From: Thermoanaerobaculia bacterium
GTDB taxonomy: Bacteria; Acidobacteriota; Thermoanaerobaculia; Gp7-AA8
Direction of reading: 5' to 3'
DNA: 64,000 nt
Assembly (NCBI GenBank): GCA_035536275.1
Contig: DATLOL010000196.1
Span: 1,196-65,195 of the forward strand
A model generated the notes under the pieces. It saw only the letters and a program-made list of their open reading frames with translations, searched no databases and was not told where the DNA came from. Of this stretch, positions 12,474-58,334 are shown one piece after another. The position numbers were made by a program, and so were the translations under genes. Position 1 is the stretch's first letter. Each line of letters starts with the position of its first letter.

Positions 12474-14441
12474 ATGTTCCCCTCGCGCGCCGTGACGCTG
12501 CTCGCCCTCGTGCTGTTGGCCAGTGCCACCTCGGCCGCTACCCGCACGTGGACGGGTGCATCCGGAACGTTGTGGACCGACGCCGGCAACTGGCAGGGCG
12601 GGGTCGCGCCGGCGCCCGGCGACGCGCTGGTGTTTCCGCGTACGGCCCCCAATCTCACGAACACGAACGATTACCCGGTGGACACGATCTTCCACTCGCT
12701 CAGCCTGGGACCGGACAACCAGAGCACCGCGGCGACGATCAACATCAGCGGCAACCGCCTGCGCGTGACGAACGGCGTCATCCTCGGCCACTACTTCCAA
12801 TTCTTCGTGTCGCTCCCGCAGGTCGACCCGGTCGGAACGCAGGCGTGGGGCGGCGACGGGTCTCTCACCATTGCCGGCTCTCCGAATCTGACGATGACGA
12901 CGTCGATCCCGGCCGCCACCACCGTCAACATCAATCACGTCTTCGGGAGCATCACTCTCGGCGGCGCGGGCAGTCTCGCTACCGGAAACCGTACCCTCCT
13001 GACCCTGTACATGACCGGGTTCACCGGCACCGTCAGCACGACCAACCAGCAGTTGCCGTTGGGCGTGTTCGTGGACAACAGCAACGCGCCCGTGGCGACT
13101 TTGCTGTCGACCGGCGCTCCGTGCGAGATGCAGTGCCAGCACGGTCTCACGATCAGGAACTCCGTGCTGGGCACGGTGCAATCGACAGGCGGGAAGGTGC
13201 ATCTCAACGATGCCACACAGTCGTCGACGGTGTCCGTGCTCGACATGAACGGTGCCGCACAGCTGGTCGCGTTCGCGTCGACCGGGTCTCCCACTCCGCT
13301 CACCGTCCTCGACACGTTGTCCCTCGGCGGCGCGTCGCTGCATTTCACGGCCATGGAGCCGATCCCCATGGCCACGACCAAGGTGCTGATCGACAACCAG
13401 ACCGCAAATCCGGTCTCGGGAACGTTTGCAGGTCTACCCGAGGGATCGCGAATCATCGCGTCCGGCACGAACCAGCACTTCGCGATCTCGTACGAGGGCG
13501 GCGACGGCAACGACATCACCCTGACCGCCGTCAGTACGGCGCGCTCCGACTTCGACGGCGACGGCCGCTCGGACATCTTCTGGCGACACACGACCGGCGG
13601 CCAGAACTATCTCTGGACGATGAACGGCTTCACCCCGCAAACGATGGGCTTCGTCAACGACGTCCCGGATCTCGACTGGAAGATCGAGGCTCTGGCCGAC
13701 TTCAACGGCAACGGGAAGAGCGACGTGCTGTGGCGCCACGCACTCACCGGCGATCTCTACATGTACCTGATGGATGGACGCACGATCGTGGGCGCCGGAG
13801 CCGTGGGACAGGTGACGGACCTCGACTGGCGGATTGCCGGCACCGGCGACTTCGACAACGACGGCAAAGCGGACATTCTCTGGCGCCACGAGCTCACGGG
13901 CGAGAACTACCTGTACCTCATGAACGGCATCAACATCCGTTCGGGTGGGAGTCTCTTCACCGTCGAGGACACGGACTGGAAAGTGGTCGCGATCGCCGAT
14001 CTGAACCAGGACCGCATGGCCGAGATCATCTGGCGTCACAGCCAGACAGGAGAAGTGTTCTTCTGGCAGATGAACGGACACGAGAGGCTGGCGTTCGGCA
14101 CGATCACGACCATTCCGGATCAGGACTGGAAGCTCGCCGCGGTCGCGGATTTCGATAACGATGCGTACAACGACCTCCTCTGGCGCCACGCCGTGACCGG
14201 CGAGAACCAGCTCTATCGCCTGCAGAACGTGCGCATCACGCAGCAGTTCGCGCTCGATGCCGTGCACCCGGACTGGGACGTCGCGGGCGCCGGCGACTAC
14301 AACGGCGACGCCAAGGCAGACATCCTCTGGCGGAACCGCGTCACGGGCGAGAACTATCTCTACCTGATGGACGGCGGCACGGTCGCCGCCCCGGGAGCGC
14401 TGCCCCAAATCCCGGACACGGAGTGGACGATCGAGAGGTGA
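12474..14441 (+). CDS. Secreted FG-GAP/VCBS-repeat protein, copy 1
   Basis: Signal peptide; TWTG..W...GNW adhesin-like N-terminus; repeated DFDGDG.SDI(F/L)WRH units. Confidence 0.85.
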   Translation: MFPSRAVTLLALVLLASATSAATRTWTGASGTLWTDAGNWQGGVAPAPGDALVFPRTAPNLTNTNDYPVDTIFHSLSLGPDNQSTAATINISGNRLRVTNGVILGHYFQFFVSLPQVDPVGTQAWGGDGSLTIAGSPNLTMTTSIPAATTVNINHVFGSITLGGAGSLATGNRTLLTLYMTGFTGTVSTTNQQLPLGVFVDNSNAPVATLLSTGAPCEMQCQHGLTIRNSVLGTVQSTGGKVHLNDATQSSTVSVLDMNGAAQLVAFASTGSPTPLTVLDTLSLGGASLHFTAMEPIPMATTKVLIDNQTANPVSGTFAGLPEGSRIIASGTNQHFAISYEGGDGNDITLTAVSTARSDFDGDGRSDIFWRHTTGGQNYLWTMNGFTPQTMGFVNDVPDLDWKIEALADFNGNGKSDVLWRHALTGDLYMYLMDGRTIVGAGAVGQVTDLDWRIAGTGDFDNDGKADILWRHELTGENYLYLMNGINIRSGGSLFTVEDTDWKVVAIADLNQDRMAEIIWRHSQTGEVFFWQMNGHERLAFGTITTIPDQDWKLAAVADFDNDAYNDLLWRHAVTGENQLYRLQNVRITQQFALDAVHPDWDVAGAGDYNGDAKADILWRNRVTGENYLYLMDGGTVAAPGALPQIPDTEWTIER

Positions 14442-14554: not shown

Positions 14555-14584
14555 CGATTGATATGGGGTGATATCGATCGAGAC
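14555..14584 (+). repeat. Isolated copy of the palindromic array site
   Basis: CGATTGATAT-GGGGTG-ATATCGATCG-AG, 28 bp identical to 24810..24837. Confidence 0.9.
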
Positions 14585-14722
14585 GACTCGCAACAGATCG
14601 GTAAGCCACCTGTAGCCGTTTGTTCGGACTGCCGTCACAACTAACTGCCGTCCTTCGGCATATATTCATATCGTCCAAAACGACGCATCGTGAATTTGAC
14701 GGAGTAGCCAGCGGACGGAGTC

Positions 14723-15715
14723 GTGGCGAGTCGTGTACCTGAAGAAGTGTCCGGCGGGTGTACGCGGCCGGTCTTCCGGATTCCGCCGGGGGCGGGAGCG
14801 GACCAGACCGGCAACATCAGGAATCATGCGAGTGCAGTGCTCGTGTTCGGGCCGAACGCCTCTGCGAACGAGGTCACGGCCACACTGGACGCGCTGCCGG
14901 ACACGGTCTGCAGCGCGATCGTGTTTGCAACGCGCGAATCGCTCGCGGACTTTCAACCACTCATCGACGACGATCGCCTCTTCTACCTCGCATGCGGCGA
15001 GCTTCCGCCGCGCGAGCTCGACGCGCTGATCGACAACGCCCTCGGCGAGCGCAAGCCCGCAGCAACACTCGATCGCTACCTCACCGCCGCGAGTCTGCGC
15101 CGGATCGCACTTGCGCAGAGCATCGCGGAGCTCACGAGCGCGCTGCGTGCAGCCGCGGCCACCACGGTCGGCGCGGAGCGCACCCGCTGCGTTCTCTTCG
15201 ACAGCCAGCGTGGAACGCTGTGGGTCCCGGACGAATCGGATGCCGAGAGCACCGCGGCGGGGCTGGTCAGCTTCATCCTCCGGACGGGCGTCGCTGTGTG
15301 TCTCCCGCATCTCGACGGCGACGCGCGCTTCGATCGGGATCTCGACAACCCCGAGGGCAGTAGTGCGGATCGATTCCTCGGCGTCCCCATCCTGGCCGGC
15401 GGGAAGGTCGTGGCGGTGCTCACCGCGATGCGGCCCTCCCACGCTTTGGCGTTCGAGCCAGTCGACATCGCGGCCATGGAAGCGCTCGCGGCACACGCCA
15501 GTCCGTACGCGGCGGCATGGCTCGAGGAATCGCCGGACTCGGGCGGGCCGTTCCGCCTTCGCGCATTGCGCGCGGCCGAGCAGACGCCCGGCTCCGCATC
15601 CGCGCCGCTGCAGCTCGAATCGGCGTGGATGCGCCGCGCGACCTGGCTTTTCTTCGCATCGCTCCTCACGCTGCTGGTTGCGTTCGTCGTGCTGAGGGGG
15701 TGGCTCGGTGAGTAA
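14723..15715 (+). CDS. GAF-domain protein with degenerate receiver-like N-terminus and a C-terminal TM helix; start uncertain
   Basis: GAF-like TAAGLVSFILRTG...D.RFDRDLD...FLGVPI....KVVAVL; FRLRAL..then hydrophobic helix; overlaps the ABC transporter start. Confidence 0.65.
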   Translation: MASRVPEEVSGGCTRPVFRIPPGAGADQTGNIRNHASAVLVFGPNASANEVTATLDALPDTVCSAIVFATRESLADFQPLIDDDRLFYLACGELPPRELDALIDNALGERKPAATLDRYLTAASLRRIALAQSIAELTSALRAAAATTVGAERTRCVLFDSQRGTLWVPDESDAESTAAGLVSFILRTGVAVCLPHLDGDARFDRDLDNPEGSSADRFLGVPILAGGKVVAVLTAMRPSHALAFEPVDIAAMEALAAHASPYAAAWLEESPDSGGPFRLRALRAAEQTPGSASAPLQLESAWMRRATWLFFASLLTLLVAFVVLRGWLGE

Positions 15716-17954
15716 GCGCATGCGCTTCGTGCCCCAGACCGCCGCCGCCGATTGCGGCGCGGCATGTCTGGCCATGACCCTCGGCGTCCACGGCCGGCAG
15801 GTGGCCCTGGAGGACGTGCGGCGCGTGACCGGTCTCTCCCGTCACGGCCTCGACGCGCAGCATCTGGTCGCGGCCGCGGAGCATTTCGGACTGCGCGCGC
15901 GCGGCGTGCAGTTGCGGACTCCGGAAGACCTCGCGTTTCTCGATCCCGGGAGCATTCTGCACTGGGAGTTCCGTCACTTCGTCGTCTTCGAGCGCGCCGA
16001 GAAAACGGGCGCGTGGGTGCTCGATCCCGCGAGAGGCCGTACCTTCGTGTCTCGCGCGGAGCTCGACCGCTCGCTCACCGGCGTGGCGCTGGTGTTCGAG
16101 CCGGGAAGCGATTTCGAGCGCGGCAGCGGCGACGTTCACCGCGCATCGCTTCTCGGCCGGTATGTGAAGCGCGTGCTGCAGCAGGACGCGGCACTCGTGC
16201 GCATCCTCCTGCTCTCGGTTCTGCTGCAGTTGTTCGCGCTCGCGGTGCCGGTGCTGACCGGGTTCCTGATCGATCGCGTGCTGCCCCACGGCGATCGCCA
16301 GCTCTACTGGATCCTGGGCGCGGGCGCCGCGACGCTCGTCGCATTCTCCACGCTGGCGAACTTCATCCGCTCGCACATCCTGCTCGCGGTGCGCACGCGC
16401 CTGGACGCGCAGCTCACGACCGATTTTCTCGAGCACCTCATCCACCTGCCGTTCTCGTTCTTCCAGCAGCGCTCCACCGGCGATCTGATGATGCGCGTCA
16501 ATAGCAACTCCACGATCCGGGAGATGCTCACCTCGGGCGTCCTTTCGGGAGCGCTTGACGGGCTGATGGTGGTGACGTACCTCGTCCTGCTCCTCGTCGC
16601 CGACGTTCGCCTCGGCTTGGTCATCGCCGGACTGGCCGTGCTGCGTGTGGCCGTCCTCATCGGCGCGTTGCGAGTGCGGCAGCGGCTCACCGCGGAGTCG
16701 CTGCAGGCGCAGGCGGCGGCGCAGGGTTATGAGCTGCAAATGCTGTCCGGCATCGAAGTGTTGAAAGCGTGCGGTGCGGAGCGGCGTGCCGTCGGCATCT
16801 GGTCGAACCTCTTCGTGCAGCAGCTCAACGTCTCGCTGGCGCGCGGCCGGCTCGATGCGCTGGTGAGCGCGCTGCTCGACGGTCTGTCGCTGGCGTCGCC
16901 GGTGACGGTGCTGCTGTACGGCGGGATGCGCGTGATGAACGGCGAGCTGACCCTCGGCATGATGCTCGCGCTGGCCGCGCTGGCCGCCGGATTTCTCGCG
17001 CCGCTCTCGCAGCTCGTCGGCAATGCCTCGCAGTTCCAGTTGATCGGCAGCTATCTCGAGCGGCTCGAGGACGTGCTGGCCGCGCCCGTCGAGCCGCAGG
17101 GACGCGACCTGCCGCGGCCGGAGTCGTTCGCCGGGCGCCTGTCGCTCCAGGGTGTCACGTTCCGCTACAGCGCCCTCGTTCCCCCGGCCCTCGCGGATGC
17201 GTCCTTCGATGTCGAGCCGGGATCGCTGATCGCGGTCGTCGGTCCGTCGGGATCGGGCAAGTCGACGCTCGCGGCGCTCGCCGCCGGTCTGCTCGTGGCG
17301 GATGAGGGACGCGTCGGGTATGACGACCGCGCGCTCACCGAGCTTCCGCGCGAGTGGCTGCGCTCGCAGATCGCATACGTTCCGCAGCACTCGTTTCTGT
17401 TCGGGACGACCATCCGCGCGAACATCGCGCTGCAGGATCCGGATCTCGCCTTCGAGCGGATCGTCGAGGCGGCGAAGCTCGCCGAGATCCATGACGAGAT
17501 CACCGCGATGCCGATGGGCTACGACACCCTCCTCGCGGACTCCGGATCGTCGCTCTCCGGCGGACAGCGCCAGCGCATCGCTCTGGCGCGCGCGCTGGTG
17601 ACCCGTCCGAAGATTCTGATTCTCGACGAAGCCACGAGCGCGCTCGATGCCGTCACGGAGCAGAAGATCCAGCGCAACCTCCTGGCTCTGCGCGCGACAC
17701 GCATCGTCGCCGCGCACCGTCTGAGCACGATCCGCGATGCGGATCTCATCGTGGTCCTCGACCACGGCCACACCGTCGAAACGGGCACGCACGCCGAGCT
17801 CGTGGCCCGCGACGGTCTCTATCGCCAATTGGTTTCCGCGCAACTCGAGCGCGCGGAAGAGTTGACCCCGTCAACCCGCGCGCAACCCACGCCCTTCTTC
17901 GGGGTCGAGGCGAGGCACGCACGCATTCAAGGCATTCGAGGAGACACGTCATGA
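15708..17954 (+). CDS. lanT: Peptidase C39-containing ABC transporter (PCAT, LanT-type)
   Basis: QTAAADCGAACL and HFVV C39 motifs; TM domain; GPSGSGKS, LSGGQRQR, ILDEATS. Confidence 0.95.
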   Translation: MSKRMRFVPQTAAADCGAACLAMTLGVHGRQVALEDVRRVTGLSRHGLDAQHLVAAAEHFGLRARGVQLRTPEDLAFLDPGSILHWEFRHFVVFERAEKTGAWVLDPARGRTFVSRAELDRSLTGVALVFEPGSDFERGSGDVHRASLLGRYVKRVLQQDAALVRILLLSVLLQLFALAVPVLTGFLIDRVLPHGDRQLYWILGAGAATLVAFSTLANFIRSHILLAVRTRLDAQLTTDFLEHLIHLPFSFFQQRSTGDLMMRVNSNSTIREMLTSGVLSGALDGLMVVTYLVLLLVADVRLGLVIAGLAVLRVAVLIGALRVRQRLTAESLQAQAAAQGYELQMLSGIEVLKACGAERRAVGIWSNLFVQQLNVSLARGRLDALVSALLDGLSLASPVTVLLYGGMRVMNGELTLGMMLALAALAAGFLAPLSQLVGNASQFQLIGSYLERLEDVLAAPVEPQGRDLPRPESFAGRLSLQGVTFRYSALVPPALADASFDVEPGSLIAVVGPSGSGKSTLAALAAGLLVADEGRVGYDDRALTELPREWLRSQIAYVPQHSFLFGTTIRANIALQDPDLAFERIVEAAKLAEIHDEITAMPMGYDTLLADSGSSLSGGQRQRIALARALVTRPKILILDEATSALDAVTEQKIQRNLLALRATRIVAAHRLSTIRDADLIVVLDHGHTVETGTHAELVARDGLYRQLVSAQLERAEELTPSTRAQPTPFFGVEARHARIQGIRGDTS

Positions 17955-18154
17955 AGAAACAGTTCACGAGCAAGCTCCACCTGAACAAGGAAACGTTGCG
18001 CAACCTGTCCGACCGCGATCTGAAGAGCGCGATCGGCGGCGCGACCTTCAACTGTGTGGAAACGGGCATGTCGTATTGCCAGACCTGTCCGACCGAGAGT
18101 TGTCTCTCGTACGGCAGCAGCTGCACCACCGGCAACGCCCGCTGCTGTTGCTGA
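17951..18154 (+). CDS. lanA: Lanthipeptide precursor: 30-aa double-Gly leader plus 37-aa core with 8 Cys and 11 Ser/Thr
   Basis: MKKQFTSKLHLNKETLRNLSDRDLKSAIGG|ATFNCVETGMSYCQTCPTESCLSYGSSCTTGNARCCC; GAGGAG RBS; lies between PCAT and LanC. Confidence 0.92.
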   Translation: MKKQFTSKLHLNKETLRNLSDRDLKSAIGGATFNCVETGMSYCQTCPTESCLSYGSSCTTGNARCCC

Positions 18155-18165
18155 CGCCAATATCC

Positions 18166-18196
18166 GAGGCGGCCGGAGGGCGCACCCGGCCGCCTC
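18166..18196 (+). terminator. 11-bp GC stem-loop after lanA (stabiliser or attenuator)
   Basis: GAGGCGGCCGG-9 nt-CCGGCCGCCTC with no strong U-tract. Confidence 0.55.
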
Positions 18197-18215
18197 ACTT
18201 CCGGAGAACACGGCC

Positions 18216-19490
18216 ATGTGGCAATCGATCGCCAGCGCGGACACGCGCCGCGAATGCTGGAGCACCATCGAAGAGATCGAGCACGGACTCGACCGGTATC
18301 TGGGGAGCGGCGATGCAACGCTCGATGACGTGACCGGCGGCTACGCCGGCGCCGCATTGTTCTACGCGTACCTCCACGCCGCGAGCGACAACGCCGGCGC
18401 GGCCGACCGCGCCCTGGAAGCGCTGGAACGGAGCACGAGCGCGCTCGCCGAGCGGCAGATGCTGCCGGCGCTCTATTCGGGCTTCCTCGGCGTCGGCTGG
18501 GTCGTCACGCATCTCACCCGCGATCTGTTCGAGGGCGATCCCGGTCTCGCCGGAGAGATCGACGACGCGCTGCGACAACTGCTGTCGAATGTCGAAGACA
18601 AATTGACGTTCGAATTGATCTACGGCCTGGCCGGATACGGGACGTATCTCGTCGAGCGCCTGCCCGATCCCGGAGCAGCCGCGTTGCTGGGCCGCGTCCT
18701 CGATCTGCTCGAAAGCTCACGCGATGCGTCGGGGGTGTGGCACACGGACCCCGGCTGGATGTCGCCGTGGCAACGCGAGAAGATGCCGCAGGGCTCCTAC
18801 AACCTCGGCGTCGCGCACGGGATCCCGGGGGTGATCGGATTTCTGGCCGCTGTCAGGCGCGAAGGTGTCCGCGATCCTCGTCTGGAGCGTTTCGCCGACG
18901 ATGCGGTGCGATGGACCCTGGCCCGGAAGTGGGAATCCCCGCACTCACTCTTTCCGGCTTTCATTCCGGTCGGCGGTGAGCCGTACCCGACGCGGACGGC
19001 CTGGTGTTACGGAGATCTCGGCGTGGCGGCGATGCTGCTCTCCGCGGCGCAGAGCTTTGGGCGCGACGACTGGAGGCGCGAGGCGCTGTCGATTGCCCGT
19101 ACCGCGGCGCGCCGTTCCGTCGAAGACACGCAAGTCAAGGATGCGGGCCTGTGCCACGGCTCGACCGGCATCGCCCACCTCCTCAATCGCATGGCCCAGG
19201 CCAGCGGCGACGACGAGCTTCGCAATGCAGCGGAGCGCTGGTATCGCGTCGCCCTCGACATGCGACGCCCGGGGGAGGGTCTGGCCGGACTCCTGAGCTG
19301 GGTCGACGTGGTCGAGAACGGGAAAATCGTCGGATTCGAGTGGAAGACCGAGCCCGGCTTTCTGTCCGGTGTCGCCGGGATCGGTCTCGGCCTGCTCGCC
19401 GCGGTTACGGACTTCGAGCCGGCGTGGGATCGCGTGCTCCTCGTCGCCATCCCGCCGGACGGCAGCGAGAGCAAGGGAGTCGCTGCATGA
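18216..19490 (+). CDS. lanC: Lanthionine synthetase LanC
   Basis: NLGVAHGIPG, WCYG and LCHG zinc-ligand motifs; ATG 18216 inside ORF 18054..19490. Confidence 0.93.
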   Translation: MWQSIASADTRRECWSTIEEIEHGLDRYLGSGDATLDDVTGGYAGAALFYAYLHAASDNAGAADRALEALERSTSALAERQMLPALYSGFLGVGWVVTHLTRDLFEGDPGLAGEIDDALRQLLSNVEDKLTFELIYGLAGYGTYLVERLPDPGAAALLGRVLDLLESSRDASGVWHTDPGWMSPWQREKMPQGSYNLGVAHGIPGVIGFLAAVRREGVRDPRLERFADDAVRWTLARKWESPHSLFPAFIPVGGEPYPTRTAWCYGDLGVAAMLLSAAQSFGRDDWRREALSIARTAARRSVEDTQVKDAGLCHGSTGIAHLLNRMAQASGDDELRNAAERWYRVALDMRRPGEGLAGLLSWVDVVENGKIVGFEWKTEPGFLSGVAGIGLGLLAAVTDFEPAWDRVLLVAIPPDGSESKGVAA

Positions 19491-22400
19491 GCAAAGACAT
19501 CGTTCCTTCCGGACTGGTCGTGTTGCGCACGCCGCTCCTCCCGATGGAGGAGATCGACGCCTGGCGTGCGGGACTGCAGGTGCCGCACGCGGCGGAGGAC
19601 GCCCTCGACGAAGCGCTCGCGCACGATCGCGCGCTCCTGCGCGAGCGTCTGCGGAAAATCGTGGCCCGGCCGGAGATTGCGGAGGCGCTCTTCCTCGGGT
19701 CCCCCGATCTCTTCGAAACCCTCGAGCAATGGAGGCGCGATCCCGAATCGAAGAAGGGAAAGAAGACGGAGCAGGCCCTGGTCCGCTATTTCCTGCGCAT
19801 GGCGTCGCGTCCGACGCCGTTCGGTCTCTTCTCCGGCTGTACGGCGGGACGGACCGGAGATCGCACGCGGCTCGTGCTCGGAGAGCGCAGTGCGTATCGC
19901 CGGTACAGCCGGCTGGACATGGATTACCTGTTCGCGTTGTGCGAGCACCTATCGCGCGATCCGGAGATTCGCGCGGAACTGCGCTTCCGGCCGAACTCGA
20001 GCCTGTACGAGACCGCGGGACGCCTGCGATTCGCGGAATCGCGCGTGCAGGGACGCATGCGGACGGTTCACCTCGTTGCCATCGACGCATTCGATGCGCT
20101 GCGGGACACGCTTCGCCGCGCGGCGGGTGGTGCGCGTCTGCACGATCTGGCAACGGCACTCGTCGAGAGCGATCCGGATGGCGAGATCACGCCTGAAGAC
20201 GCCGAGGCTTTTCTTCAGGAGCTCGTGGACAGCCAGCTTCTGGTGCCCGAGCTCGCACTGCCGGTGACGGGCGAAGAGAGCACGGCCGGCCTGGTCGAGC
20301 AACTCGATGTCCGGCAACTCGACTCGGTGCGCCTCGCGAGCGATGCCCGCACACGCCTGGCAGAGACCAACCGCGCGTTGCGCGACATCGATGCGGCGGG
20401 ACTCGGCTCGCCGCCGGACGTCTATCGCCGGCTGGCATCGGAGCTCGAGCCCCTGGGGGTACCGGTGTCGCTCTCGCGACTGTTTCAGGTGGATCTGACG
20501 AAGCCGCCGCAGGAGGTCGTGATCGGCGCGAGCGTCATCGATGAAGTGGTGCGCGGCCTCGAGGTCCTGCAGCGCTTCTCGCGCACGCAGGCGGAGCGGT
20601 CGCTGGAAGAATTCCGCGCTGCTTTCGTGGACCGGTATGGTGCGGATCGCGAAGTGCCGCTCGTCGACGTCCTCGATGAGGAGAGCGGCATCGGCTTCGA
20701 GCGCGCGAACAGAGCCGGAGCGGAGGCCTCGCCCCTTCTGTCGGCTCTGCCGCTGCAGCGACGCGGCGAATCAGCGGGCTACATCTGGAAGAACGAGGAT
20801 GCCGCGCTGATGGATCTGGTGATGCGCGCGGCGGCGGAAGGGCGCACCGAGATCGAGATCGGCGACGGCGACCTCCCGTCGCTGGAGAAATCCACGCGTC
20901 CGCCGATGCCCGAGGCGTTTCACGCCATGGCCGTGCTCTGCGCGGAATCGGCGGAGGCGGTCGAGCGCGGCGAGTTCCGGGTGCTTCTCTATGGCGGACA
21001 GGGACCGTCCGGTGCGCGCATGCTCGGTCGTTTCTGCCACAGCGATCCCGCGATCGACGAAGGAGTGAGGAAGCACCTCGCCGACGAGGAAAGGCTTCAT
21101 CCGGACGCCGTCTTCGCGGAGATCGTGCACCTGCCGGCCGGACGGATCGGCAACGTCCTTGCGCGGCCTGTTCTGCGCGGGCATGAGATCGCGTTCCTCG
21201 GCCGCTCCGGCGCGCCGCCGGACCGGCAGATCGCGGTCCAGGATCTGATGGTCACGGTTTCGGGCGATCGGATCCGCCTCCGATCGCGGAGCCTCGATCG
21301 CGAGATCATTCCCAGGATCACTTCGGCGCACAACACGTCGTCGGAAAGCCTCGGCGTATACCGGTTTCTGGCGGCGCTCCAGCCTCCCGTGGGCATGCAA
21401 TGGGATTGGGGAGCCATGGACCTCGCGCCGTACCTGCCGCGCGTCGTGTACGGCCGGCTGGTGCTTGCCCGCGCCCGCTGGTGTGTTACGGCTGCCGAGA
21501 TCCGGCCGATCGCGGAGGCCGCGGGAGCGCAGCGTTACCGCCTCGCGAAACGTCTCCGCGAGACGCGGCGGATGCCCCGCTACGTGAGTCTTGCGGAAGG
21601 CGACAACGAGCTGTTCATCGATTTCGAGAACGCGCTCACGCTCGACTCGGTGATCGAGCTGGTGCACAGCCGCCGGGACGTGACGTTCACCGAGTTCTTT
21701 CCTTCCCCGGACGAGCTGTGCGCGGAAGGACCGGAAGGACGGTTCTTTCACGAGTTGGTCATCCCGTTCACGCGCCGCCCCGCGGAAACACCCGTGCCGC
21801 TCGAATCGCGAACGGCTCCCTCGCTCCTGGTCCGGCGCACGTTCCCGCCGGGATCGGAGTGGTTGTACGCGAAGCTCTACACCGGGACTGCGACGGCGGA
21901 CCGTGTGTTGTGCGAGGACGTTGCGCCGCTGGCGCGGGAGGCCGTGGCCAGCGGCGCCGCGCGACGCTGGTTCTTCATCCGCTACGCCGAGGGCGGGTGG
22001 CACCTGCGCATCCGCTTCCAGGGCGATCCGCGGGTGCTGCGCGAGCGCGTGCAGCCCGAGCTCGAGTCGATGGCCCAGCGTCTCATCGACACGGGTGCCG
22101 CGTGGAAGCTGCAGTTCGACACCTACGAGCGCGAAGTCGAGCGCTACGGCGGCGCCGAGGCGATCGAGCTCGCGGAAGAGATCTTCCACTGCGACAGCGA
22201 AGCCGTCGTGGAGCTGCTCTCGTCATGCACCGGCGACGCCGGCGCCGATCTCCGCTGGCGATTCATGCTCGCTGGCATCGACCGCCTCTACGCCGACTTC
22301 GGATTGGATCTCGCCGCCCGGCTCCGTCTCGCCGAGCGTTCGCGCGACGCGTTCGGGCGGCAGTTCCACTTCGACTCCCTGCGCGACGACCTCGCCAACC

Positions 22401-22690
22401 GCTTCCGCGGACAACGCGCCTCCCTGCTGCAACTCCTCGACGCGCCGATCCCCGCACTCGATCAGCGATCCGCCGCGATCGCGCCGGTGGCCCGCGAGCT
22501 CCTCACTCGTCGGCTGCACATTCCGATCGATGCGATCCTCCCCAGCCTCGCCCACATGTTCGTCAACCGCCTGGCCCGCTCCGCGGGACCGGAGCATGAG
22601 CTGGTCCTGTACGACTATGCCGTGCAGTTGTACCGGTCGTGTATCGCGCGGGAAGGGAAGAGGGAGGGCGGGAGGAGGGCGGTGGGGTGA
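19487..22690 (+). CDS. lanB: Class I lanthipeptide dehydratase LanB (glutamylation plus elimination domains)
   Basis: VLRTPLLP, YFLRMASRPTPFGLFSG, WLYAKLY, WFFIRY, HLRIRF, YEREVERYGG, HMFVNRL; ATGA overlap with the lanC stop. Confidence 0.95.
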   Translation: MSKDIVPSGLVVLRTPLLPMEEIDAWRAGLQVPHAAEDALDEALAHDRALLRERLRKIVARPEIAEALFLGSPDLFETLEQWRRDPESKKGKKTEQALVRYFLRMASRPTPFGLFSGCTAGRTGDRTRLVLGERSAYRRYSRLDMDYLFALCEHLSRDPEIRAELRFRPNSSLYETAGRLRFAESRVQGRMRTVHLVAIDAFDALRDTLRRAAGGARLHDLATALVESDPDGEITPEDAEAFLQELVDSQLLVPELALPVTGEESTAGLVEQLDVRQLDSVRLASDARTRLAETNRALRDIDAAGLGSPPDVYRRLASELEPLGVPVSLSRLFQVDLTKPPQEVVIGASVIDEVVRGLEVLQRFSRTQAERSLEEFRAAFVDRYGADREVPLVDVLDEESGIGFERANRAGAEASPLLSALPLQRRGESAGYIWKNEDAALMDLVMRAAAEGRTEIEIGDGDLPSLEKSTRPPMPEAFHAMAVLCAESAEAVERGEFRVLLYGGQGPSGARMLGRFCHSDPAIDEGVRKHLADEERLHPDAVFAEIVHLPAGRIGNVLARPVLRGHEIAFLGRSGAPPDRQIAVQDLMVTVSGDRIRLRSRSLDREIIPRITSAHNTSSESLGVYRFLAALQPPVGMQWDWGAMDLAPYLPRVVYGRLVLARARWCVTAAEIRPIAEAAGAQRYRLAKRLRETRRMPRYVSLAEGDNELFIDFENALTLDSVIELVHSRRDVTFTEFFPSPDELCAEGPEGRFFHELVIPFTRRPAETPVPLESRTAPSLLVRRTFPPGSEWLYAKLYTGTATADRVLCEDVAPLAREAVASGAARRWFFIRYAEGGWHLRIRFQGDPRVLRERVQPELESMAQRLIDTGAAWKLQFDTYEREVERYGGAEAIELAEEIFHCDSEAVVELLSSCTGDAGADLRWRFMLAGIDRLYADFGLDLAARLRLAERSRDAFGRQFHFDSLRDDLANRFRGQRASLLQLLDAPIPALDQRSAAIAPVARELLTRRLHIPIDAILPSLAHMFVNRLARSAGPEHELVLYDYAVQLYRSCIAREGKREGGRRAVG

Positions 22691-22735: not shown

Positions 22736-24712
22736 ATGATCCGCCACCGCATCATCCCTCTGGTCGTAGTGTCTCTGCTCGCGTTGTCCGCCTTCGGCGC
22801 CACGCGCACATGGGACGGCACCGCCGGCACGTTGTGGAGTGACCCGGGCAATTGGGAGGGTGGCGTTGCTCCGTCGGCAGGTGATGCGCTGGTGTTTCCG
22901 CGCACGGCGGCGAATCTCACGAACACGAACGATTATCCGGTCGATACGGTCTTCCACTCCCTCACCCTCGGGCAGGACAACCAGAGCACGGCCGCCACGA
23001 TCAACATCAGCGGCAACCGCCTGCGCCTCACGAACGGCATTCTGTTCGGGTACTACACCTTCTTTCACATTTCTCTGCCGCAGATCGATCCGGTCGGGTC
23101 GCAGACCTGGGGGGCGGACGGCTATCTGACCGTTGCCGGCAATCCGACCTTGACGGTGGCGACGAACATCCCGGCCGGGACGACCGTGACTCTGTCGGAC
23201 GGCATTGCAGACGTCACCGTGGACGGTGCGGGCACGCTCGCGCACTCGATCAGGGGCCAGGCGACGGTGCACTTCGCGCCGGACTTCACCGGCACGGTCA
23301 CCACGAGCACCTTCTTTTCCGGCGTGATCATCAACAGCGAAAACGCAATCGGAGCAACGGTGCGTGCGAATGGCGGCGCGTGCGCGGCCAGCTGCAACTC
23401 CGGCATCCTGCTCGCGAATTCGGTCGTTGGGACGCTCGGATCGACGGGAGGATTCGTTCAGTTTTCGGATCCCACGCAGCTCTCCACCGCGGCAAATCTC
23501 GAGCTGACTGCCGGCGCGCTCTTCTTCGCCCGGATGACGGCAGCATCGCCGCCGCCGCTCACGGTCCTGGACAGCGTCTCCCTCGGCGGCGCGGCCCTGC
23601 ATTTCGTACCGGTCGGCCTGATTCCGTCCGGCCACACAAAAGTTCTCATCGACAACCAGAGCGCGAATCCTGTCTCGGGCATGTTCGCGGGCCTGCCCGA
23701 GGGAGCACGGGTCTCGCCGGGCGGATCGAATCTGCAGTTCGTCGTCTCGTACGTGGGCGGCGACGGCAACGACGTCACCTTGACTCCGATCAGCACCACG
23801 TCGAACGACTTCGACGGCGACGGGCTCTCGGACATCTTCTGGCGCCACTCCACGTCCGGACAGAACTATCTCTGGACCATGAACGGATTCGAGCCCCAGA
23901 CCATGGGCTTCGTCAACGACGTCACGGATCTCGATTGGAAGATCGAGGGCCTGGCCGATTTCAACGGCGACGGCAAGTGCGACGTGCTGTGGCGGCACGC
24001 GCTCACGGGCGAGTTGTACACGTACCTGATGGACGGCCGCACGATCGTGCAGGCCGGCTCGCCGGCCCTGGTCACGGACCTGAACTGGCAGATCGTGGGA
24101 CAGAGAGACTTCGACGCCGACGGGAAGGCGGACATCCTCTGGCGGCACGCGCTCACGGGGGACAACTATCTGTATCTGATGAACGGAATCAACATCCGTT
24201 CGGCGGGAAACATCCTCTCCGTCGAGGACACCGACTGGAAAGTCGAGGCATTGGGCGACTTCAATGGCGACAACCGCGCGGACATCGTGTGGCGCCACGC
24301 CGTGACCGGCGAGGTCTACTTCTGGTTCATGAGTGGTTTCGACCGGATCGCCTATGACTCGAAGTTCACCATGCCCGACGAGGACTGGAAAATCGTTGCG
24401 ATTTCGGACTTCACCGGCGAAGGGTACTCCGACATCCTCTGGCACAACGACGCGACCGGCGAGAGCTCGCTGTACAGGATGCACGGCCCGTATTTCGCGC
24501 AAGCCCGCCAGCTCGACACCGTGGCCGTCGAGTGGAAGATCGCCGGCACCGGCGACTACAACGGCGACGGAAAATCGGACATCCTCTGGCGCCACGCCAC
24601 GACGGGCGAGAACTATCTCTACATCATGGGCGACTTCTCCGCGACGACGATGTTCGCGGCGCAGGGAGCCATCCCGGAAGTGCCGGACACGGGGTGGGCG
24701 ATCGAGAGGTGA
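22736..24712 (+). CDS. Secreted FG-GAP/VCBS-repeat protein, copy 2 (paralog of 12474..14441)
   Basis: Same architecture; near-identical N-terminal ~80 aa and FG-GAP repeats; both end PDT.W.IER. Confidence 0.85.
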   Translation: MIRHRIIPLVVVSLLALSAFGATRTWDGTAGTLWSDPGNWEGGVAPSAGDALVFPRTAANLTNTNDYPVDTVFHSLTLGQDNQSTAATINISGNRLRLTNGILFGYYTFFHISLPQIDPVGSQTWGADGYLTVAGNPTLTVATNIPAGTTVTLSDGIADVTVDGAGTLAHSIRGQATVHFAPDFTGTVTTSTFFSGVIINSENAIGATVRANGGACAASCNSGILLANSVVGTLGSTGGFVQFSDPTQLSTAANLELTAGALFFARMTAASPPPLTVLDSVSLGGAALHFVPVGLIPSGHTKVLIDNQSANPVSGMFAGLPEGARVSPGGSNLQFVVSYVGGDGNDVTLTPISTTSNDFDGDGLSDIFWRHSTSGQNYLWTMNGFEPQTMGFVNDVTDLDWKIEGLADFNGDGKCDVLWRHALTGELYTYLMDGRTIVQAGSPALVTDLNWQIVGQRDFDADGKADILWRHALTGDNYLYLMNGINIRSAGNILSVEDTDWKVEALGDFNGDNRADIVWRHAVTGEVYFWFMSGFDRIAYDSKFTMPDEDWKIVAISDFTGEGYSDILWHNDATGESSLYRMHGPYFAQARQLDTVAVEWKIAGTGDYNGDGKSDILWRHATTGENYLYIMGDFSATTMFAAQGAIPEVPDTGWAIER

Positions 24713-24745: not shown

Positions 24746-25428
24746 GAGGGATGTGCGGAGACGTCAATCGTGGCCTCCGCGAGCACGTGAACGCCTGCGG
24801 TGCGATATCCGATTGATATGGGGTGATATCGATCGAGGGCTCGGCAGGCATGCGTAAGAGCGCACCGCACGTGCGATCGAGCTGAATGGCCGTCGATCGT
24901 GACCTCGCCGACCGCGCGCTTCATATGGGGTGATATCCATCGAGGCGTCGGCGACCGTCCGCCCGAGCGCGGCGACCGCTCAATTGATATGCGGTGATAT
25001 CAATCGAAGTCTCGACGGACGTGCAATTGATATGGGGTCATATCGATCGAGACCTCGGCGACCGCGTGAAAATGTCCGGTGCACGGGCCGATTGATATGG
25101 GGTGATATCGATCGAGGTCTCGGCGAGCGTGTGAACAGGTGCGGCGCGACACCGAATTGATATGGGGTCATATCAATCGAGGGCTCGACGACCGCCCGCA
25201 CGAGCTCTGCGACCCTGCAATTGATATGGGGTGATATCAATCGAGGCCTCGGCGGACCTGCAATTGATATGGGGTCATATCAATCAGGGCCTCGGCGACT
25301 ACGTGAAAATGTCCGGTCGACGGCGCGATCGATATGGAGTGATATCAATCGAAAGCCTCGGCCAGTGTGTGCACCAGCGCAGTGAACGTGCGATCGATGT
25401 AGGGCGATATCGATTCGAAGCCTCAGCG
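24746..25428 (+). repeat. 12-unit direct-repeat array of a ~35-bp palindromic motif with 43 or 64-65 bp periodicity
   Basis: Consensus CRATTGATAT-GGGGT(G/C)-ATATCRATCG-AGGCCTCGGCG; unit starts (TTGAT position) 24748, 24813, 24877, 24920, 24984, 25027, 25092, 25157, 25221, 25264, 25329, 25394. Confidence 0.93.
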
Positions 25429-25459: not shown

Positions 25460-25536
25460 TGGTCGGGCAGGGGGGATTTGAACCCCCGACCACCTGAACC
25501 CCATTCAGGTACGCTACCAGGCTGCGCTACTGCCCG
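25460..25536 (-). tRNA. tRNA-Pro(GGG)
   Basis: Reverse complement CGGGCAGTAGCGCAGCCTGGTAGCGTACCTGAATGGGGTTCAGGTGGTCGGGGGTTCAAATCCCCCCTGCCCGACCA. Confidence 0.96.
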
Positions 25537-56474: not shown

Positions 56475-58334
56475 GTGCTCGACGAAGACGATACCGACCG
56501 GTTCGATCGAACGTTGTCGATGCGGCGCGTGCCGCCGCGGCCGACGAACGCCGAAACTCCGCCCGACAAGCGCGCCACGGATCGCCGCCAGGGCAACACG
56601 CGCATCCTCATCGGCACGATCATCGTCATCGCCGTACTGCACCTCGCGCGTCCGGTCGTTGTGCCGGTCGCGCTGGCGGTGCTGTTCGCATTCCTGCTCA
56701 CGCCGATCGTCATCCGTCTCGAGCGAACGTTCCTCCGCCGCACCGGCGCGATCGTGCTCTCACTTGGCCTCACGTCACTGCTCCTCGGTTTCGGCGGCTG
56801 GTGGATCTATCAGCAGCTCAACTCCGTCGCGCGCGAGCTCTCCAGCGCCGCGACCAGTGAGAACGTCGATCGCAAGCTCGAGTCGATCCGCAGGCGCGCC
56901 GGCCAGTTCAACCTCCTGGAGCGCGCGCTCCAGCGTGTCGCCGAGGTGGGCGAGCAGCAGCAGCGGCCCGATCTGAAGGTGCGGGTCATTCCGGAACGGA
57001 AAACGGTCGGCGAGAGGTACGAGGAAGTCGCGCCCACCGTCGAAGGCGTCGCCGCGTCGTTCCTGGTCATCGTGGTCGTCTTCTTCCTCCTGCGCGACCG
57101 CGAGCAGCTGCGCGACAAACTCCTCCGGGTCGCAGGCCGCGCGCACCTCACCGTGACGACGCAGGCCATCGGCGAGACGTCGCAGCGCATCAGCCGGTAC
57201 CTGTTGACCATCGCCTTGCTCAACATCGGCTTCGGAGTCCTGATCGGTCTCGGTCTGTGGATGCTCCAGGTGCCGCACGCCGCGCTCTGGGGCGTGCTCG
57301 CGGGACTGCTGCGCTTCGTGCCGTACATCGGCGCGGTTCTCAGCGCCGCGGCGCCGACGTTTCTCGCCTTCGCCGTTTTCCCGAACTGGTACTCCTCCCT
57401 CGCCGTCCTCGGGCTGTTCGTCTTCAGCGATCAGTTGATCGGCGGCTTCATCGAACCGATCGTGGTCGGACATCGGGTCGGCGTGTCCCCGATCGCGCTG
57501 CTACTTGCGGCGATCTTCTGGGGCTGGCTGTGGGGACCGGTGGGACTGCTCCTGGCGACGCCGATCACCGTGTGCCTCACCGTCGGCGGCGAGTTCATCC
57601 CCGCGCTGCGGATCTTCTCGATCATGTTCGGCAGCGAGGATCCGCTCGAGGGCTACCTCAGTTTCTACAACCGCCTGCTGCTCCGCGACCGCACCGGCGC
57701 GATCGCCATCGCCGATCGGTACGCGGAGACCGCGACGATGGAGGAGATGTTCACGGACCTCTTCATCCCGACACTCACCTTCGCGCAGGAGGAGCTGGAT
57801 CGCAAGCGCATCACCCAGGCCCACGATCACTTCATCAAGGACGTCGTGCGCGAGCTGATCATCCGCTTCGGCGATCGCAACGCCGGGACGCCCGATCCGC
57901 TGAAGCACATCGTCGCCGTGTCCGTCGCCGGCGAGCGTCTTTCACTGGGCACGCTGATGCTGACCCAACTCCTCCGCAGCGAGGGCTACACCGCGGACTA
58001 CTTCACCGACCTGCCCGAGCAGGAGTTGGTCGCGTTCATCAACGAGGTGAAGCCGGAGGCGGTGTTCGTTTCGTGCACGAATCCGGATCACGTGGGACAG
58101 GGTCACGCGATGCTGCAGTTGCTCGCGGCGAACTTCCCCGAGGGGGCGATCGTGGCGGGCGGCTCGGCATTCTCGCGCGACCGAACGAAGGCGCTCAAGT
58201 CCGGCGCGACCTACGTGCCGTCGACGCTCAAGGAAGCGAAGGACGACTTCATCGCCCAGCGCCGTGGCGCGCGCAAGAAGAGCGGGCGGATGACGTTCAC
58301 GGGAACGCGCTTCCGCGTGCCGCCGCCGGCTTGA
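56475..58334 (+). CDS. AI-2E family transporter fused to a cobalamin-binding-like domain
   Basis: LRFVPYIG, GVSPIALL, WGWLWGPVGLLLATP; C-terminal EEMFTDLFIP...GERLSLG..M...L...GY. Confidence 0.82.
   Translation: MLDEDDTDRFDRTLSMRRVPPRPTNAETPPDKRATDRRQGNTRILIGTIIVIAVLHLARPVVVPVALAVLFAFLLTPIVIRLERTFLRRTGAIVLSLGLTSLLLGFGGWWIYQQLNSVARELSSAATSENVDRKLESIRRRAGQFNLLERALQRVAEVGEQQQRPDLKVRVIPERKTVGERYEEVAPTVEGVAASFLVIVVVFFLLRDREQLRDKLLRVAGRAHLTVTTQAIGETSQRISRYLLTIALLNIGFGVLIGLGLWMLQVPHAALWGVLAGLLRFVPYIGAVLSAAAPTFLAFAVFPNWYSSLAVLGLFVFSDQLIGGFIEPIVVGHRVGVSPIALLLAAIFWGWLWGPVGLLLATPITVCLTVGGEFIPALRIFSIMFGSEDPLEGYLSFYNRLLLRDRTGAIAIADRYAETATMEEMFTDLFIPTLTFAQEELDRKRITQAHDHFIKDVVRELIIRFGDRNAGTPDPLKHIVAVSVAGERLSLGTLMLTQLLRSEGYTADYFTDLPEQELVAFINEVKPEAVFVSCTNPDHVGQGHAMLQLLAANFPEGAIVAGGSAFSRDRTKALKSGATYVPSTLKEAKDDFIAQRRGARKKSGRMTFTGTRFRVPPPA

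What the first reader, a model, noticed from the sequence alone, without database searches (positions are those of the whole stretch)
14723..22690. Complete class I lanthipeptide cluster using a double-Gly leader and C39 exporter, probably from an Acidobacteriota genome
Seen: GAF/TM gene, PCAT, lanA, lanC and lanB are co-oriented, and three of the four junctions overlap. LanC keeps its zinc ligands and LanB has both domains. No LanP, immunity (LanI/LanFEG) or two-component genes are present. Established: nisin-type class I systems use FxLD leaders and LanP, while GG-leader/PCAT processing is more typical of class II and of Gram-negative class I clusters such as the pinensins. Inference: the product is likely uncharacterised and may be a signal or have a non-self target, given the lack of immunity genes.
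Basis: partly seen in the sequence, partly recalled or inferred. Interest (0 to 1): 0.7.

Follow-up and report, generated by a model that had tools for sequence, protein, structure and literature searches.

The report
Lanthipeptide operon with stump exporter adaptor
This is a real five-gene operon for an uncharacterised ring-containing peptide in a soil Acidobacteriota genome; the pathway is a known type, but the exporter's partner protein has lost its whole outer (periplasmic) part and kept only a cytoplasmic sensor-like module.

Summary
Window 14723-22690 (+) holds five co-oriented genes: GAF/TM protein, C39 peptidase ABC exporter (PCAT), lanA, lanC and full-length lanB. Catalytic residues are intact and three junctions overlap. 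The precursor passes NCBIfam's curated class I "L1a" Gly-Gly leader model. Class I with GG leader and C39 has been described since 2020 (pinensin, Ped15, thalassomonasin, viridisin groups), so the pathway is a new member of a known kind. Relatives are all uncultured Thermoanaerobaculia/Acidobacteriota MAGs, and none is characterised.

The new part is the "GAF/TM gene". It is homologous to the cytoplasmic front end of a family of HlyD-type membrane-fusion proteins that sit beside PCATs in Acidobacteriota: a receiver-like domain, a GAF domain, a PFRxRAL motif and one TM helix. In this lanthipeptide lineage the periplasmic part was lost stepwise, from about 270 residues to about 90 to 3-6. The cytoplasmic module stayed under purifying selection, and in another lineage it is fused in frame to the PCAT. 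I read it as a cytoplasmic regulatory or adaptor subunit of the exporter. How the peptide crosses the outer membrane is unexplained. Product, activity and GAF ligand are unknown.

The parts
14613..14666 (+). Conserved upstream block ending in a -10-like TATATT (14661-14666); candidate promoter/operator of the operon
   Evidence: Alignment of 7 orthologous upstream regions. TATATT is invariant, and the TTTGTTC and CGTmAC blocks are conserved. The sigma-70 consensus scan found no promoter, so promoter function is inferred.
14723..15715 (+). REC-like + GAF + PFRxRAL motif + C-terminal TM helix protein (330 aa): a HlyD-type membrane-fusion protein lacking all periplasmic domains
   Evidence: Pfam GAF. 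AF2 model pLDDT 82 with an alpha/beta domain at 17-106, GAF at 122-267 and a TM helix at 300-329. Foldseek matches GAF and REC+GAF structures. 36% identity (E=2e-32) to the N-terminal half of a 618-aa GAF-MFP. Distant homologues of about 600-700 aa carry HlyD_3/HlyD_D23/Biotin_lipoyl. dN/dS is 0.23-0.31. The start codon is uncertain: conservation begins near residue 12, and the assembly's own gene call (P0180) starts at residue 39.
15708..17954 (+). Peptidase-containing ABC transporter (PCAT): C39 domain (Q10, C16, H90, D106), six-helix TMD, and NBD (Walker A at 515, LSGGQ at 616, Walker B at 636)
   Evidence: Pfam. Best NCBIfam hit is TIGR03796 NHLM_micro_ABC1 at 634.8 bits, below its 853.3 cut-off. 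Motif positions.
17951..18154 (+). lanA precursor (67 aa). Leader is residues 1-30 (17951-18040), ending in GG. Core is 37 aa (18041-18151): ATFNCVETGMSYCQTCPTESCLSYGSSCTTGNARCCC, with 8 Cys, 5 Ser and 6 Thr
   Evidence: NF038153 lant_leader_L1a scores 31.6 bits against a cut-off of 22. L9-x-L11-x-K13-x5-L19 fits the LxLxKx5L motif. In the 28-sequence family alignment the leader is nearly invariant and Cys/Ser/Thr positions in the core are conserved.
18166..18196 (+). G+C-rich hairpin (11-bp perfect stem) in the lanA-lanC spacer; candidate attenuator or transcript stabiliser that sets the lanA:lanCB ratio
   Evidence: Fold -31.6 kcal/mol, z=-2.2. Stem sequence is conserved in L004 and L006, where a T-run follows. 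Function is inferred.
18216..19490 (+). lanC cyclase (424 aa) with H201, C264 and C313/H314
   Evidence: Pfam LANC_like E=1.5e-42. PDB matches 8byk, LanCL2 and NisC. Motifs.
19487..22690 (+). lanB dehydratase (1067 aa) with glutamylation and elimination domains
   Evidence: Pfam covers both domains end to end. Closest solved structures are MibB 5ehk (E=8.5e-57), 9g04 and NisB 4wd9. Catalytic motif residues R104, R108, T110, D144, D336, R515, R841/R843 and R886 align with NisB. H1023 is assigned by motif only.

Best explanation
This is a five-gene operon that makes and exports one class I lanthipeptide.

- **Dehydration (inferred from homology):** LanA is 67 aa, and its 30-residue leader carries the LxLxKx5L...GG signature. 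LanB dehydrates core Ser/Thr by glutamyl-tRNA-dependent glutamylation followed by elimination.
- **Cyclisation (inferred from homology):** LanC uses its zinc site to add core Cys to the dehydro residues. There are seven family-conserved Cys positions, so up to 7-8 thioether rings are possible.
- **Cleavage and export:** The PCAT's C39 domain cuts after G29-G30. The transporter then moves the 37-residue core across the inner membrane.
- **First gene, evolutionary origin (shown):** it is neither an immunity gene nor a stand-alone sensor. It is the cytoplasmic front end of the HlyD/CvaA-type membrane-fusion protein that partners such PCATs in Acidobacteriota: a receiver-like domain, a GAF domain, a PFRxRAL motif and one TM helix. 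All periplasmic domains are deleted.
- **First gene, present role (inferred):** it is translationally coupled to the PCAT. It most likely remains bound to the PCAT as a cytoplasmic regulatory or adaptor subunit, through which a still unknown ligand could gate leader cleavage or export.
- **Consequence (inferred):** the alpha-hairpin that would dock an outer-membrane channel is gone. The peptide is therefore probably released into the periplasm, or it uses another route out.
For: **Pathway**
- Domain hits and catalytic residues for LanB, LanC and C39.
- The curated leader model is passed.
- The leader is nearly invariant and the core Cys/Ser/Thr pattern is conserved in 27 relatives.
- The same five-gene order recurs in more than 17 independent metagenome or MAG loci whose GAF proteins are 44-77% identical to this one.

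**Origin of the first gene**
- 36% identity over 277 aa to the N-terminal half of a 618-aa GAF-MFP in a related lanthipeptide cluster.
- HMMER against 1.84 billion representatives gives 214 hits below 1e-10. Most are 580-750 aa, with the query aligned to their first ~380 residues and HlyD_3/HlyD_D23/Biotin_lipoyl behind it.
- Survey of 55 genome loci: every full, mini and TM-only form with enough flanking sequence to check lies directly upstream of a PCAT; one further metagenome contig (L027) carries an orphan copy with no PCAT.
- On the PCAT tree the reduced forms make one clade (SH-aLRT 99) nested among full forms. Mini forms are basal and TM-only arises at least twice.
- The alignment shows the mini forms keep only the first and last periplasmic strands.

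**Retained function**
- 84 clusters of the short form, 47-89% identical, with conserved length.
- dN/dS of 0.23-0.31, like the other operon genes at 0.15-0.37.
- Start/stop overlap with the PCAT gene in the gene calls of L004, L006, L007, L026, L028 and L029.
- In-frame fusion of the module to the PCAT N-terminus, without the TM helix, in L049 (1102 aa). The same fusion appears in metagenome protein P0036 and probably in P0043 (domains not scanned).
- No relocated periplasmic half in this genome or in two relatives, one of them a complete chromosome.

**Fold**
- AF2 model pLDDT 82. Foldseek matches GAF domains and REC+GAF sensor kinases.
Against: - No experimental data exist for any member. 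Dehydration, ring pattern, cleavage site and export are all inferred from homology.
- The GAF ligand and any contact with the PCAT are inferred from gene order, coupling and fusions, not observed.
- The receiver-like assignment rests on one AF2 model. No Pfam hit covers residues 17-106.
- The genome is 85% complete, so an unlinked adaptor, protease or immunity gene could be missing.
- An unrelated MFP/TolC pair could serve the PCAT in trans.
- P0036 shows frameshift-like sequence at its C-terminus, so part of the fusion evidence may be assembly error. L049 reads cleanly through the whole PCAT.
Confidence: 0.75

Rival explanations
1. The GAF/TM gene is a decaying remnant of a truncated membrane-fusion gene with no present function, and the PCAT works alone or with an unlinked adaptor.
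For: The periplasmic domains are missing, and reduction happened in steps. One relative (L038) shows a partly deleted cluster and another (L027) an orphan GAF gene.
Against: The short form keeps its length and about 27 invariant residues across 55 aligned sequences, 36-89% identical to this protein. dN/dS is 0.23-0.31, the same range as lanB, lanC and the PCAT. The reading frame is intact and overlaps the PCAT start. In another lineage the module is fused to the PCAT rather than lost.
Confidence: 0.07
2. The GAF/TM protein is an independent membrane-anchored sensor or immunity factor. For example, it could sense the mature peptide or a stress signal, or protect the producer, and it does not act on the exporter.
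For: GAF domains are generic small-molecule sensors (Foldseek hits to cNMP-binding GAFs). No other immunity or regulatory gene is in the operon.
Against: Only 3-6 residues lie outside the membrane, so it cannot meet a periplasmic peptide. It has no output domain (no kinase, DNA-binding or cyclase domain). Its homologues are the front ends of exporter adaptors wherever the context could be checked, and the module occurs fused to the PCAT.
Confidence: 0.1
3. The operon is a recently acquired island (tRNA-Pro associated), and its features reflect a donor outside this lineage.
For: A tRNA-Pro (25460-25536) and a repeat array lie downstream (earlier notes). Two FG-GAP paralogues, 60% identical, bracket the operon.
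Against: The left neighbourhood is shared with L028 (amidohydrolases, TonB receptor, TrmFO, DUF3467, cdd) and in part with L006/L007 (TrmFO, DUF3467, cdd). In those loci the operon directly follows cdd, without FG-GAP genes. G+C content is flat across the region. All relatives are Acidobacteriota. No integrase is adjacent.
Confidence: 0.08

Closest known systems
Gly-Gly-leader class I lanthipeptide clusters of Gram-negative bacteria: pinensins (Chitinophaga pinensis), Ped15.1/15.2 (Pedobacter lusitanus), thalassomonasins, viridisins VdsA1/A2
   Same: Separate LanB and LanC enzymes. Leader of the LxLxKx5L...GG type, as modelled by NF038153/PF28317. A C39 protease/exporter takes the place of LanP. 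There are no LanFEG/LanI genes (PMC7268733; PMC9680876).
   Different: Different phylum (Acidobacteriota, Thermoanaerobaculia). One precursor instead of several. An unrelated 8-Cys core. Full-length rather than split LanB, unlike pinensin. The exporter's partner is a REC-like/GAF/TM stump; my keyword search of the literature found no such partner reported for those clusters.
Nisin-type class I systems (NisABTCIPRKFEG)
   Same: LanB glutamylation/elimination residues and LanC zinc ligands are conserved.
   Different: No FNLD-box leader, no NisP subtilisin, no NisT (a PCAT is used instead), no NisI/FEG immunity, no NisRK. The lipid II-binding ring A/B motif is not evident in the core.
CvaA-CvaB-TolC (colicin V) and HlyD-HlyB type adaptor/ABC pairs; NHLP export set TIGR03794/03796/03797
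   Same: A PCAT cleaves a GG leader. Its adaptor has a cytoplasmic N-terminus, an FRxxAL-like motif (compared with CvaA from memory) and one TM helix, and the adaptor gene lies directly upstream of the transporter. The PCAT's best NCBIfam model is TIGR03796.
   Different: The adaptor here has no lipoyl, alpha-hairpin or beta-barrel domains, so it cannot bridge to an outer-membrane channel. It carries about 270 extra cytoplasmic residues (REC-like + GAF). The PCAT scores below the TIGR03796 cut-off (634.8 against 853.3).
GAF + HlyD + biotin_lipoyl proteins noted in type I secretion-like loci (PMC4452313, 2015)
   Same: A GAF domain sits on the cytoplasmic end of a HlyD-type adaptor, and its function is described as unclear but probably sensory.
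   Different: Those loci go with SecA_DEAD/peptidase_M50 modules in other phyla and keep the periplasmic domains. Here the module sits in a lanthipeptide operon and the periplasmic part is deleted.

Membership tests
Class I lanthipeptide biosynthetic cluster | Full-length LanB dehydratase with N-terminal glutamylation and C-terminal elimination domains and their catalytic residues | tested here: met
   PF04738 covers 1-646/649 and PF14028 covers 1-255/255. Residues aligning with NisB R83, R87, T89, D121, D299, R464, RxR and R826 are present. The NisB residue numbers are from my own knowledge of the NisB literature.
Class I lanthipeptide biosynthetic cluster | Stand-alone LanC cyclase with Cys-Cys-His zinc ligands and the catalytic His | tested here: met
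   PF05147 E=1.5e-42. H201, C264 and C313/H314 lie in the AHG, WCYG and CHG motifs.
Class I lanthipeptide biosynthetic cluster | Adjacent precursor with a leader and a Cys plus Ser/Thr-rich core | tested here: met
   lanA at 17951-18154. The core has 8 Cys and 11 Ser/Thr.
Class I lanthipeptide biosynthetic cluster | The product actually contains dehydro residues and (methyl)lanthionine rings | not testable with these tools
   Needs expression and mass spectrometry.
L1a (Gly-Gly leader) class I lanthipeptide precursors, NF038153 / PF28317 | Score above the curated cut-off, LxLxKx5L motif, and a leader ending in GG | tested here: met
   31.6 bits against a cut-off of 22. L9, L11, K13, L19, G29 and G30 are all invariant in 28 sequences. 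Relatives carry precomputed PF28317 hits.
Peptidase-containing ABC transporter (PCAT/AMS) | N-terminal C39 domain with Gln/Cys/His/Asp, a TMD, and an NBD with Walker A, signature and Walker B motifs | tested here: met
   PF03412, PF00664 and PF00005. Q10, C16, H90, D106, GSGKST at 515, LSGGQ at 616 and ILILDE at 636.
NHLP bacteriocin exporter subunit TIGR03796 (equivalog) | Score above the curated cut-off | tested here: not met
   634.8 bits against a cut-off of 853.3. Related to the family, but not a member.
HlyD/CvaA-type membrane-fusion protein (periplasmic adaptor) | Periplasmic lipoyl, alpha-helical hairpin and beta-barrel domains after the TM helix | tested here: not met
   The protein ends 3-6 residues after the TM helix. 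There are no HlyD/Biotin_lipoyl hits. Homologues keep these domains, so this protein derives from the family but is no longer an adaptor in the structural sense.
HlyD/CvaA-type membrane-fusion protein (periplasmic adaptor) | Cytoplasmic N-terminus plus a single TM helix, encoded directly upstream of its ABC partner | tested here: met
GAF domain sensors | GAF fold | tested here: met
   PF01590 at 42.7 bits against a cut-off of 22.4. Foldseek probability 1.00 to many GAF structures.
GAF domain sensors | A defined ligand (cNMP, haem, bilin, etc.) | not testable with these tools
   I could not recognise a known ligand-binding signature. The conserved D200-x-R-F-D-x-x-L-D-x-P-x-G212 segment has unknown meaning.
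Lantibiotic self-immunity / regulation (LanI, LanFEG, LanRK) and LanP | Presence of such genes in or next to the cluster | tested here: not met
   None among 37 ORFs scanned across the window. LytS-type kinases elsewhere in the genome are only 32-45% identical to the cluster-linked kinase of the sister clade.

The most novel reading that the evidence does not exclude
The receiver-like/GAF module may be a ligand-controlled switch on a leader-cleaving ABC exporter, so that RiPP maturation and export are gated at the protein level by a cytoplasmic metabolite or second messenger.

In this clade the adaptor has lost every periplasmic domain while the sensor was kept. The exporter may therefore deliver the lanthipeptide into the periplasm rather than outside the cell. 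That would make it an envelope-resident lanthipeptide, for example metal- or redox-active through its conserved C-terminal Cys cluster, or acting on the producer's own envelope.
Probability: 0.2. Interest if true: 0.7.

Novelty: new variant of a known kind. Interest (0 to 1): 0.48.

Why it matters
**Pathway.** It adds an uncharacterised 8-Cys scaffold family from uncultured Thermoanaerobaculia to the known Gly-Gly-leader class I lanthipeptides. This is useful for genome mining but not surprising.

**Exporter partner.** This is the more valuable result. A family of HlyD-type adaptors in Acidobacteriota carries a cytoplasmic receiver-like + GAF module. In this lineage, evolution removed the whole periplasmic adaptor in steps and kept the sensor module under selection.
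- The cytoplasmic module therefore has a function of its own on the PCAT.
- This gives a minimal two-protein system in which to study how an accessory sensor controls a peptidase-containing ABC transporter.
- It also poses a concrete question: how, or whether, a 37-residue lanthipeptide leaves a diderm cell without an adaptor or outer-membrane channel.

Tried and rejected
- **Literature.** A full-text search for the leader and core strings and for the model accessions returned only an unrelated paper. 'Thermoanaerobaculia + lanthipeptide' gave one survey paper, which I did not read.
- **Two-component system.** The sister clade has a LytS/LytTR system. This genome's best matches are 32-45% identical generic paralogues, which is inconclusive.
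- **Relocated periplasmic half of the adaptor.** None found in this genome or in G402. The complete chromosome G401 gave only a weak generic MFP hit (E=4e-4).
- **FG-GAP genes as part of the system.** Rejected, because they are absent from syntenic relatives L028 and L006.
- **Immunity role for GAF/TM.** Rejected on topology.
- **Fusion protein P0036.** Treated with caution because its C-terminus looks frameshifted. L049 is clean.
- **Modelling the natural GAF::PCAT fusion.** Not run, because the tool returns no inter-domain confidence.
- **MIBiG/antiSMASH/BiG-SCAPE.** Not available here.

Full report
**1. Observation**

The region 14723-22690 holds five co-oriented + strand genes. High third-position G+C supports their coding status.

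| Gene | Coordinates | Size | Family evidence |
|---|---|---|---|
| GAF/TM | 14723-15715 | 330 aa | GAF, residues 139-260, E=1e-10 |
| PCAT | 15708-17954 | 748 aa | Peptidase_C39 + ABC_membrane + ABC_tran |
| lanA | 17951-18154 | 67 aa | no Pfam hit (see section 2) |
| lanC | 18216-19490 | 424 aa | LANC_like, E=1.5e-42 |
| lanB | 19487-22690 | 1067 aa | Lant_dehydr_N 1-646/649; Lant_dehydr_C 1-255/255 |

- Junctions are 8-nt overlap, 4-nt overlap, 61-nt gap and 4-nt overlap. The first overlap assumes GTG 15708 rather than ATG 15720 as the PCAT start.
- The C39 domain has Q10, C16, H90 and D106. The NBD has Walker A, signature and Walker B motifs.
- LanC has H201, C264 and C313/H314.
- LanB aligns with MibB (5ehk, E=8.5e-57) and NisB (4wd9). 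It keeps the residues matching NisB R83, R87, T89, D121, D299, R464, the RxR motif and R826. The C-terminal His (H1023 in HMFVNR) is assigned by motif only.
- Pfam scans of 37 larger ORFs across the 64-kb window found no subtilisin, no LanFEG/LanI-like genes and no two-component system. The surroundings are housekeeping genes: TrmFO, cdd, SecDF, Tgt, GlmS and the glycine cleavage system.

**2. Precursor and product family**

- LanA passes the curated NCBIfam model NF038153 (class I lanthipeptide leader L1a) at 31.6 bits against a cut-off of 22. It is the only such precursor in the 4.05-Mb, 85%-complete MAG.
- The leader is MKKQFTSKLHLNKETLRNLSDRDLKSAIGG. It fits the LxLxKx5L...GG motif that Walker et al. 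2020 described for class I LanAs accompanied by a C39 protease (PMC7268733).
- A search of 5.8 billion proteins found 27 relatives at 55-96% identity. All are metagenomic, and some are named by NCBI 'class I lanthipeptide [Thermoanaerobaculia bacterium]'.
- In their alignment the leader is almost invariant. In the core, C5, T8, S27, C35 and C36 are invariant. G9, C13, C16, S20, C21, C28 and T30 are nearly so. That makes seven conserved Cys positions and about eight conserved Ser/Thr positions, so up to 7-8 rings are possible. The third terminal Cys occurs only in the closest relatives.
- No lipid II-binding motif is evident, and ring topology cannot be derived here.
- A conserved 11-bp-stem hairpin follows lanA (18166-18196; -31.6 kcal/mol, z=-2.2). 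The stem is conserved in L004 and L006, where a T-run follows. Hairpins after lanA are, from my own knowledge, common in lantibiotic operons. Its function here is inferred.

**3. The cluster elsewhere**

- The same order, GAF-short / PCAT / lanA / lanC / lanB, occurs in L004, L006/L007, L026, L028 and L029. It also occurs in further genome loci.
- A scan of 185,579 species genomes with the GAF-protein alignment gave 55 loci. Nearly all come from Thermoanaerobaculia, Holophagales or unclassified Acidobacteriota MAGs.
- L028 shares the upstream synteny: amidohydrolases, TonB receptor, TrmFO, DUF3467 and cdd. L006/L007 share TrmFO, DUF3467 and cdd. In all of these the operon directly follows cdd, without the two FG-GAP genes that bracket it in the window.
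- The operon is therefore an old resident of this locus. The FG-GAP genes are not part of it.

**4. The GAF/TM protein**

*Homology to exporter adaptors*
- In a more distant lanthipeptide cluster (L009) the gene upstream of the PCAT is 618 aa, a GAF domain plus a HlyD-like adaptor. The window protein aligns to its first half at 36% identity (E=2e-32). The alignment includes a GPFRxxAL motif and the TM helix.
- HMMER against 1.84 billion representatives gave 214 hits below 1e-10. Most are 580-750 aa, with the query matching their N-terminal ~380 residues.
- Those long hits carry HlyD_3, HlyD_D23 and Biotin_lipoyl domains.
- Two such GAF-MFP + PCAT pairs in one genome of the same class lack lan genes. 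The module is therefore a general Gly-Gly-peptide export device in this phylum.

*Fold*
- The AF2 model (pLDDT 82) shows a four-stranded alpha/beta receiver-like domain (17-106), a GAF domain (122-267), a short helix at the PFRxRAL motif, and a terminal TM helix (300-329).
- Foldseek matches GAF domains and REC+GAF sensor kinases.
- By inspection of the sequence I see no phospho-acceptor Asp after the central strand, so the receiver-like domain looks degenerate.

*Three forms of the protein (survey)*

| Form | Residues after the TM helix | Loci |
|---|---|---|
| TM-only | 0-22 after the matched region | window + 12 loci |
| Mini | 84-119 | 5 loci |
| Full | 254-398 | about 35 loci |

- All TM-only and mini loci long enough to show the downstream genes carry PCAT-lanA-lanC-lanB (L038 partly deleted, L041 cut short by its contig end). 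Full forms accompany other gene orders, lanB-only loci, or no lan genes.
- On a PCAT tree the reduced forms make one clade (SH-aLRT 99) nested among full forms. Mini forms are basal and TM-only arises at least twice.
- The alignment shows that mini forms keep only the first and last periplasmic strands. About 190 residues, covering the lipoyl domain, the hairpin and most of the barrel, are deleted.
- The core scaffold C..TG.S.C..CP[TS]ESC[LI][ST]GGSC.T....CC is specific to the reduced clade.

*Is the stump functional?*
- The short form exists in 84 clusters (90%-identity level), 47-89% identical to this protein, with conserved length. A 55-sequence alignment has 27 invariant residues.
- dN/dS against three orthologues is 0.23-0.31, compared with 0.15-0.37 for the other four genes.
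- Its stop overlaps the PCAT start in the gene calls of L004, L006, L007, L026, L028 and L029.
- In L049 the REC-like/GAF/PFRxRAL module is fused in frame, without the TM helix, to the N-terminus of a complete PCAT (1102 aa). P0036 is a similar metagenome protein, and the 1131-aa P0043 matches the module at its N-terminus, though I did not scan its domains.
- No separate gene for the lost periplasmic half exists in this genome or in two relatives, one of them a complete chromosome.

Together these results argue for a cytoplasmic function exerted on the PCAT. They argue against a pseudogene, an immunity protein (only 3-6 residues are extracytoplasmic) or a free-standing sensor (it has no output domain).

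**5. Mechanism**

- **Inferred from family membership:** the biosynthetic logic, meaning LanB dehydration, LanC cyclisation, and C39 cleavage after GG with export.
- **Shown comparatively:** the origin of the first gene from a membrane-fusion protein and the stepwise loss of its periplasmic part.
- **Inferred only:** its present role as a regulatory or adaptor subunit, the nature of its ligand, and the consequence for outer-membrane passage.

An earlier agent working on another genome reached the same reading of the full-length family: a degenerate receiver plus GAF on an adaptor next to a PCAT (e1-1201883). I reached it independently, so that note is not counted as evidence.

**6. Comparison and novelty**

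- Class I + GG leader + C39 is established: pinensins, Ped15.1/15.2, thalassomonasins and viridisins (PMC7268733; PMC9680876).
- GAF+HlyD+biotin_lipoyl proteins were noted in 2015 with unclear function (PMC4452313).
- I found no description of the periplasm-less form, of its stepwise origin, or of its tie to one lanthipeptide scaffold.
- I therefore rate the pathway as a new member of a known kind, and the export module as a new variant of a known kind.

**7. Limits**

- There is no experimental evidence for any member.
- MIBiG and antiSMASH were not available.
- The genome is incomplete.
- The start codons of the first two genes are uncertain.

Noticed in passing
L026 upstream of 9001; L029/L047 upstream of 5522; L033-L037; downstream genes L029:13519-15496, L026:17298-18981: In the sister clade of TM-only clusters, the operon is preceded by two CCATCCCT direct repeats about 21 bp apart. 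This is the spacing I recall for LytTR binding sites. The operon is followed by a convergent 216-aa protein, a LytS-type histidine kinase (PF06580) and, in L029, a LytTR response regulator. That suggests peptide-responsive autoregulation there. The window has neither the repeats nor the kinase nearby.
   Followed up: partly
window 12474-14441 and 22736-24712: Two secreted FG-GAP/VCBS-repeat paralogues, 60% identical, bracket the operon. They are absent from the syntenic loci L028 and L006/L007, so they were inserted around, or duplicated across, an older operon.
   Followed up: partly
window 14560-14575 and 24815-25346: The palindromic unit GATAT-N6-ATATC of the 12-unit array next to tRNA-Pro also occurs once about 160 bp upstream of the operon. 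It is not present upstream of the operon in 15 related loci.
   Followed up: partly
L004 14814-16372 (also L005): Directly downstream of lanB in the closest relative lie a 72-aa ORF, an MbnB/TglH/ChrH-family (DUF692) gene and a 153-aa gene. This is probably a second RiPP cassette. It is followed by a PhoQ-like two-component system and copper-related genes (SCO1/SenC, multicopper oxidase).
   Followed up: no
L050, L052, L053, L056, L063, L067, L069: In a group of Acidobacteriota loci, a full GAF-MFP and PCAT are followed directly by a LanB homologue (about 49-50% identical to this one). tblastn found no LanC within 9 kb. These may be dehydratase-only clusters.
   Followed up: no
L049 8788-12096: A natural in-frame fusion of the REC-like/GAF module to a complete C39-PCAT (1102 aa), with the adaptor's TM helix deleted.
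   Followed up: partly
window 56475-58334: An AI-2E family transporter fused to a C-terminal B12-binding domain (619 aa). I do not recall seeing this combination before.
   Followed up: no
window 14723 vs 14837: The assembly's own gene call for the GAF protein (P0180, 292 aa) starts at residue 39. Conservation in more than 50 homologues extends upstream to about residue 12 (R19 is nearly invariant), so the longer form is more likely correct.
   Followed up: partly
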